Notes under the pieces: generated by a model
Databases searched by the model: none
What the model was told of the DNA's origin: nothing
What the model saw: only the letters and a program-made list of their open reading frames with translations
Assembly: GCF_006345805.1 (NCBI RefSeq)
Contig: NC_043002.1
Coordinates: 85,250,001 to 85,314,000, forward strand
From: Octopus sinensis
Lineage: Eukaryota
Length of the DNA stretch: 64,000 nt
Direction of reading: 5' to 3'
Part shown: piece by piece, positions 11,465-19,465 of the stretch
How the letters are laid out: each line of letters begins with the position of its first letter
How positions within the stretch are numbered: the first letter of the stretch is position 1
Program-made: the position numbers and the translations under genes

Positions 11465-11647
11465 ATAATAATAATAATAAAATAATAATAATAATAATAA
11501 TAATAATAATAATAATAATAATAATAATAATGATAATAATAATAATAATGATAATAATATAATAATAATAATAATAATAATAATGATAATAATAATAATA
11601 ATAATAATGATAATAATAATGATAATAATAATAATATTAATAATAAT
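11465..11647 (+). repeat. (TAA)n microsatellite opening the LINE stack
   Basis: Directly visible. Confidence 0.95.
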
Positions 11648-12002
11648 TGATATTGAAAAAATCTGGCATCTCAAGGCGACTACAGTGCCAGTGATTGTAG
11701 GATCTCTAGGAATGATAAAAAGGTACTGAAACCTATTTGAAAATGATTCCAGGCTTACCATCCCTACAGGAAGTGCAAAAAATCGTGTTAACTGGAACGG
11801 CTCATGTATTGAGAAGAGCATTATCGCTGTGAAAACAACATCCATCCATGAATTTATTTATTTATTAATTTTTAAATACATATTTTATCTGTGAATTTGC
11901 GCGTGTAATCTGGGAATGCATACAATGAGTTTCTCTGCCCTAGGTGTACGGAAAACACTCGGCGAGAAACGAAAGAAAATTTGATGAAAGAAGGAAAAAA
12001 AC
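11648..12002 (+). mobile_element. R4/Dong-like LINE family 1, 3' end
   Basis: DIEKIWHLKATTVPVIVGSLGMI...QEVQKIVLTGTAHVLRRALSL* plus 3' UTR ending in TAA repeats. Confidence 0.85.
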
Positions 12003-12012
12003 ATAATAATAA

Positions 12013-12447
12013 AGACAGAAAAGACAATACTTGTAGACTAATAAGATGTAAGTGTTCCCACTGATAAAAATATACCTGTAAAGGAATTTGACAAATTAAG
12101 TAAATATAAGGACCTGGAAATTGAAATACAAAAGATGTGGCATTTTAACTGTTCCTGTTATTGTGGGTACCCTAAGTATGATAACAGAAACATCTATATA
12201 ATATCCCAGGAGAACCATGTTTCATAGAACTCCAAAAGATTGTGCTGATAGGTACTGCCCACATCCTGAGAAAAACCCTATCAATTTAAATGTATGTGTT
12301 GTATTACATGATGTTTCGTTACTGCCCCTGTCACTTCCCCACCCCAAGCTTTCAGTCATACTGTAACATCTCTTATCCTTCACTTGCCCTAGAACGCGGG
12401 GTGTGTCTCGGAGAGTGATTGTAACAAACATGCAGATCAAAAGAAAA
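12013..12447 (+). mobile_element. R4/Dong-like LINE family 2, 3' end
   Basis: DVSVPTDKNIPVKEFDKLSKYKDLEIEIQKMWH...ELQKIVLIGTAHILRKTLSI* plus a distinct 3' UTR ending in (TAA)n. Confidence 0.85.
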
Positions 12448-12551
12448 TAATAATAATAATAATAATAATAATAATAATAATAATAATAATAATAATAATA
12501 ATAATAATAATATTTCAAAAGGATTGACCTAATTCTCCACAAAGGTAAATA

Positions 12552-12863
12552 GAAAAGACGAAGAGCGCGATGCGATTGCAATAGATATTTTATTGGTTGA
12601 ACGATATTTCGACAACAATCTTGTCTTTGTCGAGTTCAAAATAAAGAGGGATAAACATTCAAAATTATAGAAATTAAAATCTAATGACATTCCCTCAACT
12701 TATCGACGTTGGTTGTTCTCGTTCATACTTTAGATCTTAATGTGTATAATTTTGAATTTTTATCACTTTTTTATTTTGAACCCGACAAAGATAAGATTGT
12801 TGTCGAAATATCGTTCATCCAATAAAATATCTGTTGCAATCGCAACGCGCTCTTCGTCTTGTC
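12552..12863. mobile_element. MITE/foldback element with ~118-bp terminal inverted repeats, flanked by TA
   Basis: Arms 12552-12669 and 12745-12863 are near-perfect reverse complements; TA at 12550-12551 and 12864-12865. Confidence 0.85.
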
Positions 12864-15447: not shown

Positions 15448-15507
15448 AATAATAATAATAATAATAATAATAATAATAATAATAATAATAATAATAATAA
15501 TAATAAT

Positions 15508-15720
15508 CGTGTTAACTGGAACGGCCCATGTACTGAGAAGAGCATTATCGCTGTGAAAACAACATCCATTCATGAATTTATTTGTTTATTAATTTTTTAA
15601 ATACATAGTTTACCTGTGAATTTGCGTGTGTAATCTGGGAATGCATACAATGATCTTCTCTGCCCTAGGTGTACGGAAAACACTGGGCGAGAAACGGAAG
15701 AAAATTTGAAGAAAGAAGAA
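15508..15720 (+). mobile_element. R4/Dong-like LINE family 1, second shorter 3' fragment
   Basis: Closely matches ~11784-12000; (TAA)n on both sides. Confidence 0.9.
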
Positions 15721-15890
15721 AATAATAATAATAATATAATAATAATAATTATAATAATAATAATAATAATAATAATAATAATAATAATAATAATAATAAT
15801 AATAATAATAATAAAAATAATAATAATAATAATAATAATAATAATAATAATAATAATAATAATAATAAAAATGATGATGATGATGATGAT

Positions 15891-18800
15891 AAATTTAAAA
15901 AATGCCGCACACGCCGCTTCCACTAGCGCAAATGTGCTACAAATGATGCAAGAGAAAGTTGCTTGAAATTTTCAGATGTCAAAAAATAATAGTGGTGATG
16001 ACGATGGTGACGAACGTTACCTTACCTCAGATTATTAGAGACAGGGGTTTCCGAAAAACTCTGGTTGTAACAGCGATAATGAAGTTGGACCTTTAAGGAA
16101 GGCCTCTCGCTCGGCAGTGGATCAGTAAAGATGCAGACTGACCACAGATATCATCCTAATGCAGCATTCGCAGATAATAGAGCAAGGAGGAGGAAGTAGA
16201 CTAGTGAAGAAAACAGGATAGCGATACAGTGCTACTTAGAAAGTGAACCTAAAAGAAGGTGCTATAGAAATCTGACACTTTGAGTAGAGAAGGGTATGCT
16301 TAAAGTGACTGGGCAGATATTACTTGATCAAGCTAATGCTATTAGGAGAAGAAAGTGGATGACAGAATTGGAGGTAGAAGAGATCACAAGAGAACTGGAA
16401 AAGAAAGACCAGGCAGTGGGAAAGACAAACAACAACATAGAAGATACATCTCAAACCAAAGAAGAGCCTAAAGGGAAAAAATAATAATAGCACTACCAAT
16501 AAGGAAGGGACAACTGACACCAACGACTTAAGTGATTTAAGTGAGGAAGATCAGAAGATTTTAGATGAGTTGCAGTGCAGGAAGTAATGAGTAAAAAAGT
16601 ATGAAAAAGACTGTCAGCATTAAAAGACACTAACAGAAGGAAGCTACAAGAAATGACTAGGAAAGCAGATTCTGTTATCAGTACGATAGATACTAAAAAT
16701 ATAGATACTAAATATATAATATATAATATATAATATATAATATATAATATAATATAAATATAGATACTAAATATATAAAAAATATAGATACTAAAAATAT
16801 AGAAGACACTAACTTATTGATCTGTGCAGATGGGGCAGTAGTCACTAGAATATTAGATATCTTACTGGGAAATATTTAAAAAGAGCAACTGTGGAAAAGA
16901 AGACTACAAAATAAAGTGAAGACTTTAAGACAAGATCTGAGTAGAAAGAAGCCTGGAAAACAAACAAGTTAGGAAACACAAGATGCAAATCTTGCCTCTA
17001 GGAAAGATACTTAGTCAAAGAGAAAAGATTTGAGACAATAATAGACGAGTTAAAACAATGTACCATAGCAGTAGCAGGCAAACTGTCCATATATCAGCGA
17101 AGAGTAGATCAGTATCAAGAAAATAGATTATTTGAGACAGATCAGAGGGGATTTTATAACCAAATAAATAGTGGAGAACGAAGTACTGAAGATGAGAAAC
17201 CTAATACAGAGGAAGCTAGAAAGTTCTGGAGTAATATTTGGTATAAACCAGTAAATCAAAATGGAGATGCAGTATGGTTAAAGAAAGTGAGGAAAGAAGT
17301 AGTGAGTGAGAAGCAGCCAGATCTAAGATTAACTAGTGCATTAACGAGTAAGGTGTTAGGAAAAATGCCGAATTGAAAGGACGCAGGACCAGATTTAGTT
17401 CACGGGTACTGGCTAAAGGAATTCAGTATTTTACATAGGAGGCTGAGGGAACAACTTCAGGATTACCTTAATGGAGGAATAATACCAGACTGGATGACTA
17501 GAGGGTGGACAATCCTCACTATGAAGGACAAGAGCAAGGATAATATAGCTAGCAACTGTAGGCCAATTACTTGCTTACCATTAGTGAGGAAGCTGTTAAT
17601 AGGAATGCTTTCAGAAAGCATTTACGAGCACCTTGACAACCAAAAGTTACAAGCAGAGGAACAGAAAAATTGCAGAAAGCTGGCTTGAGGAACACATGAT
17701 CGATTATATATAGACAAAGCAGTTCTAAATGAAGTAAAAGCTAGAAAGAAAAATCTAAAAATAGCATTGATAGATAATAGGAAAGCCATAAGTATATTCA
17801 GTGTAGCAGACAACATAACAGAATTAATTAGCTTTAGCTTGAAGAAATGGAAAGTACATCTATATTCATGTCACACACTATTAGGGAAAGTTAATATCAA
17901 AAGAGGAATTTCCCAGGGGGACTTGTTGTCCTTGTTAATATTTGTCTTATGCTTGATACCCCTGTTTAGTATTAAGGAAGGCAAACGCAGGGTATCAGTT
18001 CAGAAATAGCAATGGAAAAAATTAACCATTTGCTCTACATAGATGATCTGAAGCTGTTTAGTAAGAATGAAAAAGAGATAGATTCCTTAATACAGACTTC
18101 AAGACTTTTCAGTAAAGATACAGGCATGGAATTTGGCATAGATAAGTGTGCAATATTAGTCATGAGAAGGAGACAGGTAGTCAACAGTGAAGGCATCCAA
18201 TAGATAGCCAGACATTAAAATCATTGAAAGAGGAGAGAGCTATAAGTATCTAGGAGTATTAGAATCTGAGGGAGTACTAACTACAGAAATGAAAACGAAA
18301 ATTGAGAAGGAATGCATCAGAAGGGTGAGGAAGCTAATGACGTCAAAGCTAAATGTTTCGAACCTAGTGAATGCTGTAGTTACTGTAGTTACTTAGATAC
18401 TCAGTAGCTTTTGTAGATTGGACAAAAACTGAATTAGCGAAGCTGGAAAGAAGAACTCGGAAGGAATTCAAAATGAATGGAGGACTCCACCCAAGGGCAG
18501 GAGTAGCAAGATTATAGCTACCTAGAAAGGAAGGTAGAATAGGGTTAATATCTGTAGAAGACTGTGTGGAGTTAGCTATAGAGTGAATGTAGACTCCTAT
18601 GTAGGTAATAGTGAAGAACAGAAATGATCTGACTGGCAAGAGAAGGCGCTGCATGGTAGATTCCCGAAGATAATTTCGGCAAATAGTAGTTGTGAGACTT
18701 GGTTATGACTGCATAAAGGAAAGCTGAAGAGGGAGATAGAAAGTTTGTTAGTTGCTGTATAAGATCAGGCATTAAGGACTAATTGAATAAAAGCCAAAAT

Positions 18801-19465
18801 AGAAAAAAACCAAGCAGATTCCCAATGTAGATTACGCAAATCAAAAGAGGAAAGCGTTACTCACATAGTAAGTGAATGTAGTATGCTGGCACAGAAAGAA
18901 TACAAGAAAAGACACAACAATCTAGAGGGAGCAATCCACTGGGAGCTTTATAGAAACCTAGGATTTTAACATACTGATAAATGGTATAAACGTGAACCTT
19001 GTAAAGTACTAGAAAGTAAGAAATACAAGATGTTGTGGGACTTTAACATTCAGACTGACAGAGTAATAGAAGCTGGAAAGCCTGATTTGGTAGTAGATAA
19101 AGAGAATAGAAAGTGCCAGATAATTGGTTTTACAGTCCTAAATGATGAAAAAATTAATATGAGAAGTATAGAAAAAGTAGTAAAGTACAAGGACCTTGCT
19201 ATTGAATTAGAGAGACTATAGAATGTGCGGGTAAAATGTATCCCGATAGTTGTAGGTGCATTGGGAACTATCGTTAAAAATCTGAACAGATGGATAGAGG
19301 AAATAGTCATAAAACCCAGTTTAGTACAGCTGCAGAAAATAATGTTATTCAGGACAGCTAGGATACTTAGTAGGGTTCTTGGCATCAAAAGTTACTTGCT
19401 ATAACCCAGTTAGAGAGTTTTTGGCATCTAAGGCTACTTGTTGTAGCCCGATGTTAGGATTCGTA
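15891..19465 (+). mobile_element. R4/Dong-like LINE family 5, near full length but decayed
   Basis: N-terminal TSEENRIAIQCYLESEP...LLDQANAIRRRKWMTELEVEEI; ENRLFETDQRGFY; AGPDLVHGYWLK; SNCRPITCLPL; RGISQGDLLS; INHLLYIDDLKLF; GMEFGIDKC; YKYLG; decayed CCHC; LWDFNIQTD..IEAGKPDL; many stops and deletions. Confidence 0.92.
16686..16802. repeat. Local ATAGATACTAAA duplications and (TATAA)n expansion interrupting the family 5 LINE
   Basis: ATAGATACTAAA occurs four times around an AT-only tract. Confidence 0.8.

What the first reader, a model, noticed from the sequence alone, without database searches (positions are those of the whole stretch)
11465..19465. 8-kb stack of five different R4/Dong-like LINE families, head-to-tail in one (TAA)n site
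Seen: six same-strand pieces (families 1, 2, 3, 4, 1 again, 5). Each is preceded by (TAA)n, the first five are also followed by it, and each keeps its 3' end with variable 5' truncation; at 15508 the truncation uses AAT microhomology. Their 3' UTRs differ, so this is repeated insertion rather than tandem duplication. Known: R4-clade Dong elements (RT, CCHC, restriction-like endonuclease) target TAA repeats. Inference: each insertion regenerates targets, giving a self-extending multi-family array. Five co-existing lineages on one target is notable, and intact relatives would be microsatellite-specific integrases.
Basis: partly seen in the sequence, partly recalled or inferred. Interest (0 to 1): 0.7.

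Follow-up and report, generated by a model that had tools for sequence, protein, structure and literature searches.

The report
Dong retrotransposons stacked in TAA repeats
Six broken copies of TAA-seeking jumping genes from five families, plus the tip of an unrelated retroelement, lie in a row between TAA repeats in what is likely an octopus genome; this is a large example of something routine here, likely because each new copy leaves more TAA repeats for the next one to land in.

Summary
The stack is real but ordinary for this genome. Six same-strand decayed R4/Dong-like LINE pieces from five separate lineages (27-61% amino-acid identity) alternate with (TAA)n. TAA targeting holds genome-wide: 130 of 145 copies end in TAA; 47 of 118 resolved 5' junctions follow same-strand TAA, 4 follow TTA, background 0.5%. 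Stacking is routine: in 800 kb of evenly spaced sample, 16 of 40 pieces lie in stacks; 16 of 144 anchored loci hold three to five pieces. More than five families exist, and a young sister family has 1,235-codon open frames. Dong-R4 with TAA targets in molluscs, and five recently active families in Octopus vulgaris, are published (PMC7998251, PMC13282606). This scan already noted the same stacking on other DNA of this genome (e1-10333100). Formal R4 placement against labelled references could not be run.

The parts
10936..11457 (+). Decayed interspersed repeat on the left flank, cut at its right end; piggyBac-like by a recalled motif only
   Evidence: 36 matches at 69-88% in the genome; 78-81% to L335/L336, whose continuation is absent from the window; no Pfam hit
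11465..11647 (+). (TAA)n array, about 61 units with TGA variants
11648..12003 (+). Family 1 piece: last ~60 codons and 3' UTR
   Evidence: 39 other scored copies 95-97%
12004..12012 (+). (TAA)3
12013..12447 (+). Family 2 piece: endonuclease end and 3' UTR
   Evidence: other copies 83-86%
12448..12510 (+). (TAA)21
12511..12865 (-).
   Evidence: inverted arms 12550-12645/12770-12865; 1276 candidates; longer copies lead into an RT + GIY-YIG-type frame
12864..12960 (+). (TAA)n array, about 33 units
12961..14492 (+). Family 3 piece: end of RT, thumb, CCHC, endonuclease, 3' UTR; stop and frameshifts
   Evidence: other copies 96-98%; zf-RVT E 8e-6; 94-100% to P0003
14493..14507 (+). (TAA)5
14508..15449 (+). 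Family 4 piece: CCHC, decayed endonuclease, 3' UTR
   Evidence: other copies 90-93%
15450..15507 (+). (TAA)19, last AAT shared with the next element
15508..15722 (+). Second family 1 piece: last codons and 3' UTR
   Evidence: 93% to the first piece
15723..15890 (+). (TAA)n array of about 51 units followed by (TGA)n
15897..19462 (+). Family 5 copy, 3.57 kb, N-terminal region through RT, CCHC and endonuclease, many stops; last ~40 nt and tail lost
   Evidence: RVT_1 fragments; 81-88% to L177/L178/L180; other copies 84-88%; junction bridged by contigs of runs X2 and X17

Best explanation
This is a pile of six decayed R4/Dong-like retrotransposon copies from five lineages plus one Penelope-like end, separated by (TAA)n, that likely built up by independent insertions at different times. 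Shown: each family ends in TAA and starts preferentially after same-strand TAA across the genome, and neighbours are usually of different families. Inferred from R2-type target-primed reverse transcription: the element's endonuclease nicks the TTA strand, copying starts at the RNA's 3' end and usually stops early, and the copy ends up with TAA on both sides, so one array becomes two and later copies of any family can use either. One strand choice fixes the orientation. The Penelope-like element uses the same arrays in either orientation. A later deletion likely removed the right end of the last copy.
For: 3' TAA in 130 of 145 top-scoring copies (28/29, 22/29, 29/29, 27/29, 24/29). 5' flank: same-strand TAA 47, TTA 4 of 118 resolved junctions out of 144 loci (26 ran beyond the locus); background 96 and 69 of 20,000 positions. 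Downstream same-strand neighbour in 38 of 144 anchored loci, opposite-strand in 3; 9 of 23 3' ends in the 800-kb sample. Neighbour pairs: 83 different-family, 14 same-family. Nearest-copy identity along the stack is 97, 86, 82, 98, 93, -, 88%, not ordered, so internal arrays were used. Young sister family with open frames up to 1,235 codons and 97-99% identical copies, TAA-tailed. RT, CCHC and PD..D..K residues; profile aligns to R2 through the endonuclease. TAA target in molluscs stated in PMC7998251 (passages).
Against: 67 of 118 resolved 5' junctions show neither TAA nor TTA by my cut-off (5 of these are artefacts of an internal GAA run in family 3); the TAA rate is only 4 of 20 in family 5 and 7 of 24 in family 2. 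Copies were the best-scoring 29 per family, not a random draw. No target-site duplication can be read inside a repeat, so whether insertion lengthens arrays is not shown. The empty site was not found. No tree with labelled Dong, R4, Rex6 or R2 could be built. The organism is inferred, not tested by a call.
Confidence: 0.88

Rival explanations
1. The TAA between pieces is only the tail of the upstream element, and elements cluster because some regions tolerate insertions, without sequence targeting.
For: All families have TAA tails; 67 of 118 5' junctions lack a clear TAA/TTA array.
Against: Many copies follow TAA with no Dong piece upstream (TAA at 47 of 118 junctions, an upstream neighbour at 22 of 144 loci); strand bias 47 to 4; 0 of 714 (TA)n arrays touch an element.
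Confidence: 0.05
2. Adjacent pieces were joined in one event by template jumping between RNAs of different families during reverse transcription.
For: Very short spacers of (TAA)3 and (TAA)5 between families 1/2 and 3/4.
Against: These neighbours differ in apparent age (97 vs 86%, 98 vs 93%); neighbour pairs are spread over many family combinations.
Confidence: 0.04
3. The stack is partly an assembly artefact or was assembled by recombination between TAA arrays of separate loci.
For: Left and right flanks do not rejoin; no contig spanned the whole stretch or was listed across the inner arrays.
Against: The right junction is bridged by contigs in two other studies (X2, X17) and the hairpin insert is matched with 1 difference over 269 nt in X17; similar stacks occur at many loci.
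Confidence: 0.05

Closest known systems
Dong elements of the R4 clade (Bombyx Dong; ostracod Dong1/2; 'Dong-R4' of octopus annotations; PMC7998251, PMC3774820, PMC9115989, PMC8967140 passages; PMC13282606 part 1 of 3 and passages)
   Same: Single frame with RT, CCHC and restriction-like endonuclease, no N-terminal zinc finger, (TAA)n target, several coexisting families, some young and intact.
   Different: The passages I saw do not describe or count multi-family head-to-tail stacks. No 5' HDV-like ribozyme was found by Rfam in 7 long copies, though one is reported for Bombyx Dong.
Inverted-pLTR insertions of EN+ Penelope-like elements (PMC8557442, passages)
   Same: 3' end with an adjacent inverted 5'-truncated copy, a 30-40-bp tail on one side, microsatellite bias, RT followed by GIY-YIG.
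   Different: Targets named in those passages are (TA)n, (CA)n and (C)n; this family sits in TAA or TTA arrays (23 of 32 tail ends). Clade not determined.
R2 retrotransposons (PDB 9nl3, 9dou, 8gh6)
   Same: RT-CCHC-endonuclease order and likely the target-primed mechanism.
   Different: Distant (phmmer E 1e-18 against E < 1e-140 for 120 Dong-like proteins); no N-terminal zinc-finger motif (0 of 41); target is not 28S rDNA.

Membership tests
R4/Dong clade | One frame with RT, C-terminal CCHC and PD..D..K restriction-like endonuclease | tested here: met
   P0328, 1228 aa: RVT_1 E 2e-29, zf-RVT weak; invariant C,C,H,C and PD,K columns in 61 sequences; residues visible in long copies of families 1-3, decayed in 4-5
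R4/Dong clade | No N-terminal zinc fingers, unlike R2 (PMC7998251) | tested here: met
   0 of 41 full-length proteins by pattern search
R4/Dong clade | Diverged Myb/SANT-like domain near the N-terminus (PMC7998251) | tested here: inconclusive
   Atlas lead only, Rap1-Myb cluster at 0.86; fold job never finished; no Pfam Myb hit
Dong | (TAA)n target on both sides | tested here: met
R4/Dong clade | Groups with Dong, R4 and Rex6 to the exclusion of R2 in an RT tree | not testable with these tools
   No labelled reference appeared. The tree (quick method, no outgroup) shows only that the families are separate lineages mixed among insect, mite and shrimp relatives, including a louse protein from a species listed as R4/Dong-bearing in PMC7998251 Fig. 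6 legend (accession match not checked)
Dong | 5' HDV-like ribozyme (PMC3774820) | tested here: inconclusive
   No Rfam ribozyme match in 7 loci; no custom model built
Penelope-like elements (insert 12511-12865) | RT followed by GIY-YIG endonuclease | tested here: met
   Indirect: L331 carries the same end and a 431-aa frame; Pfam on that frame gave nothing relevant, but its 35-42% identical relatives carry RVT_1 and GIY-YIG
Penelope-like elements (insert 12511-12865) | Inverted 5'-truncated copy and 30-40-bp tail | tested here: met
Penelope-like elements (insert 12511-12865) | Hammerhead motif in the pLTR; clade (Neptune/Nematis/Poseidon/Hydra) | tested here: inconclusive
   No Rfam hammerhead in 7 loci; a C-x11-CxxC linker precedes the endonuclease; no tree built

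The most novel reading that the evidence does not exclude
(TAA)n arrays in this genome are a self-multiplying shared niche: a dozen or more Dong lineages that split before they reached this host, plus a Penelope-like family with an unreported TAA/TTA preference, keep doubling the same target, so that Dong activity itself made a large share of the genome's TAA arrays (26 of 94 touch a Dong end) and the young intact family is still an active TAA-specific integrase.
Probability: 0.4. Interest if true: 0.4.

Novelty: new member of a known kind. Interest (0 to 1): 0.2.

Why it matters
The locus itself matters little. As a set, the stacks are a record of insertion order among many coexisting lineages on one target and could test how lineages share a niche. 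Young intact copies give material for studying a microsatellite-specific endonuclease, for which my PDB searches found only R2 and L1 relatives. Stacks also explain fused gene models such as P0045 (two elements in one annotated butterfly protein).

Tried and rejected
Hairpin insert as a MITE or Crypton: rejected once longer copies led into an RT + GIY-YIG-type frame. Tandem duplication: rejected. Labelled Dong/R4/Rex6 references: none in two homologue searches and two cluster look-ups; three primary papers not held. Careful tree unfinished; quick tree used. Microhomology at 5' junctions: only suggestive; 23 of 41 junctions gave usable overlaps (mean 2.0 vs null 1.0), 18 were negative partly because of mismatches to the reference copy, 8 of 41 reached 3 nt against 9% expected. 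Empty site: not found. Ordering insertions with public contigs: contigs break at the repeats, the joints listed come from paralogues; no order obtained. Rfam scans gave only repeat-driven miRNA noise. N-terminal fold never finished, C-terminal fold not run. Whole-frame HMM search missed short pieces and was replaced by chunked searches. In one search body hits confined to RT with low score, or scoring under 19 bits, were dropped before counting; L100 was left out.

Full report
Observation. All lie on the + strand and all frames are broken. The two family-1 pieces are 93% identical; other pairs share only short coding patches. Two things differ. Family 5 lacks its last ~40 nt and tail; the junction is bridged by contigs from two other studies (X2, X17), so the loss is likely real and old.

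What the LINE pieces are. Window fragments hit RVT_1 and zf-RVT weakly. A related young family has copies 97-99% identical and open frames up to 1,235 codons, with RT, CCHC and PD..D..K residues. Its 120 best relatives score E < 1e-140; the named ones are from insects, and one cluster holds a shrimp protein. R2 structures are distant (E 1e-18), although a profile aligns to R2 through the endonuclease. No N-terminal zinc-finger motif in 41 full-length proteins. PMC7998251 (passages) describes R4/Dong as RT + REL endonuclease with a diverged Myb domain and no N-terminal fingers, and says the target is (TAA)n in most insects, molluscs and cnidarians. I could not obtain labelled Dong, R4, Rex6 or R2 sequences, so clade membership rests on architecture, target and relatives, not on a labelled tree. 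The quick tree (62 rows, no outgroup) shows the five families as separate lineages, 27-61% identical over the C-terminal region, with foreign proteins between them; families 1 and 2 are the closest.

Target. I took the 29 best other copies of each family. TAA follows the 3' end in 130 of 145. Of 144 loci examined, 118 had a 5' end inside the locus; 47 follow same-strand TAA and 4 follow TTA, against 96 and 69 of 20,000 random positions. The rate is highest in the young families (15/25, 13/21) and lowest in the old (7/24, 8/28, 4/20). In 40 evenly placed 20-kb blocks (800 kb), 26 of 94 TAA arrays touch a same-strand element end, 1 of 94 in the other orientation, 4 of 56 TGA, 0 of 714 (TA)n. Microhomology at 5' junctions is only weakly supported.

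How common are stacks? In the 800-kb sample 40 pieces (4.5% of bases) form 24 singles, 5 pairs and 2 triples; 9 of 23 3' ends run into another piece. In the anchored loci 38 of 144 have a same-strand downstream neighbour and 3 an opposite-strand one; 16 loci show three to five pieces within 3.3 kb (for example L031, L032, L142), and L161, L173 and L179 show four. Neighbours are of different families in 83 pairs and the same family in 14. A geometric extrapolation gives roughly 135-970 stacks of six or more in the genome (crude, and none of that size was in the sample). 3' UTRs fell into 30 clusters, 16 with two or more members, some redundant, so the genome has well over five families. The window is an upper-tail case of a routine pattern.

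The seventh insert. It belongs to a family with 1,276 candidates. Longer copies share the left end and continue into a frame on the opposite strand; L331 has 431 codons whose relatives carry RVT_1 and GIY-YIG (direct Pfam gave nothing). The 3' tip, an inverted truncated copy and a ~39-nt tail match the pattern described for Penelope-like elements (PMC8557442, passages). Tail ends abut TAA in 10, TTA in 13 and neither in 9 of 32, so unlike Dong it has no fixed orientation. These copies came mostly from searches with the element, not from the random blocks, where none was found.

Mechanism. Inferred from R2-type target-primed reverse transcription: nick on the TTA strand, priming at the RNA 3' end, frequent early stop, TAA on both sides afterwards. 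Each event turns one array into two. Nearest-copy identities along the stack (97, 86, 82, 98, 93, 88%) are not ordered, which fits insertion into inner arrays at different times. Whether insertion lengthens arrays is not shown. The original site is unknown: the repeat on the left is cut at ~11457 and its continuation is not in the window.

What is known. The organism is likely an octopus (recalled repeat landscape and earlier scan notes; not tested by a call). Dong-R4 is among the abundant coleoid LINEs (PMC8967140, passages); a full-length Dong consensus is noted for O. bimaculoides (PMC9115989, passages); O. vulgaris has 5 recently active Dong-R4 families with 1,129 insertions (PMC13282606, part 1 of 3, Table 1). 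Seven searches listed no paper whose title or abstract start describes multi-family Dong stacks; subscription papers, Repbase and supplements were not seen, so this is weak.

Verdict. Real, correctly interpreted in outline, ordinary for this genome and expected from a known class. Interest 0.2.

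Noticed in passing
window 50036-51134, 51215-51775, 53802-54403: Four copies of a ~560-bp non-coding repeat bounded by TTA/TAA arrays, two of them in tandem; likely the TAA-associated hitchhiker of note e1-10333100. It also flanks many Dong and Penelope-like copies.
   Followed up: no
window 53205-53742 (- strand): Another Dong-like RT fragment next to a (TAA)n(TTA)n junction.
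   Followed up: no
window 20699-20796: A 98-bp family-5-like fragment, 86% to 19225-19329, 1.2 kb right of the stack.
   Followed up: no
L211:1564-5268, L212; also G000:C2:140205049, C3:88154904: Young sister family of family 1 with open frames of 1,208-1,235 codons and copies 97-99% identical; likely recently active.
   Followed up: partly
L172:5540-5500 (- strand), L053, L059, L110: The 5' end of full-length family 3 begins with a short motif that is tandemly repeated in some copies, directly after a triplet array.
   Followed up: no
P0045, P0096 (and probably P0018, P0058, P0063): Annotated insect proteins that fuse two Dong-like elements head to tail, suggesting similar stacking in butterflies and beetles.
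   Followed up: no
L165 and L166: Nearly the same multi-element stack at two places (C9003 and C2:86.69 Mb), so some stacks are copied as blocks or assembled twice; L321/L322 are likewise 98.7% identical over 9.4 kb.
   Followed up: no
window 4515-5591 and 57504-57990: A 520-bp local tandem duplication (98%) and a 184-bp SINE-part tandem of 2.6 copies.
   Followed up: no
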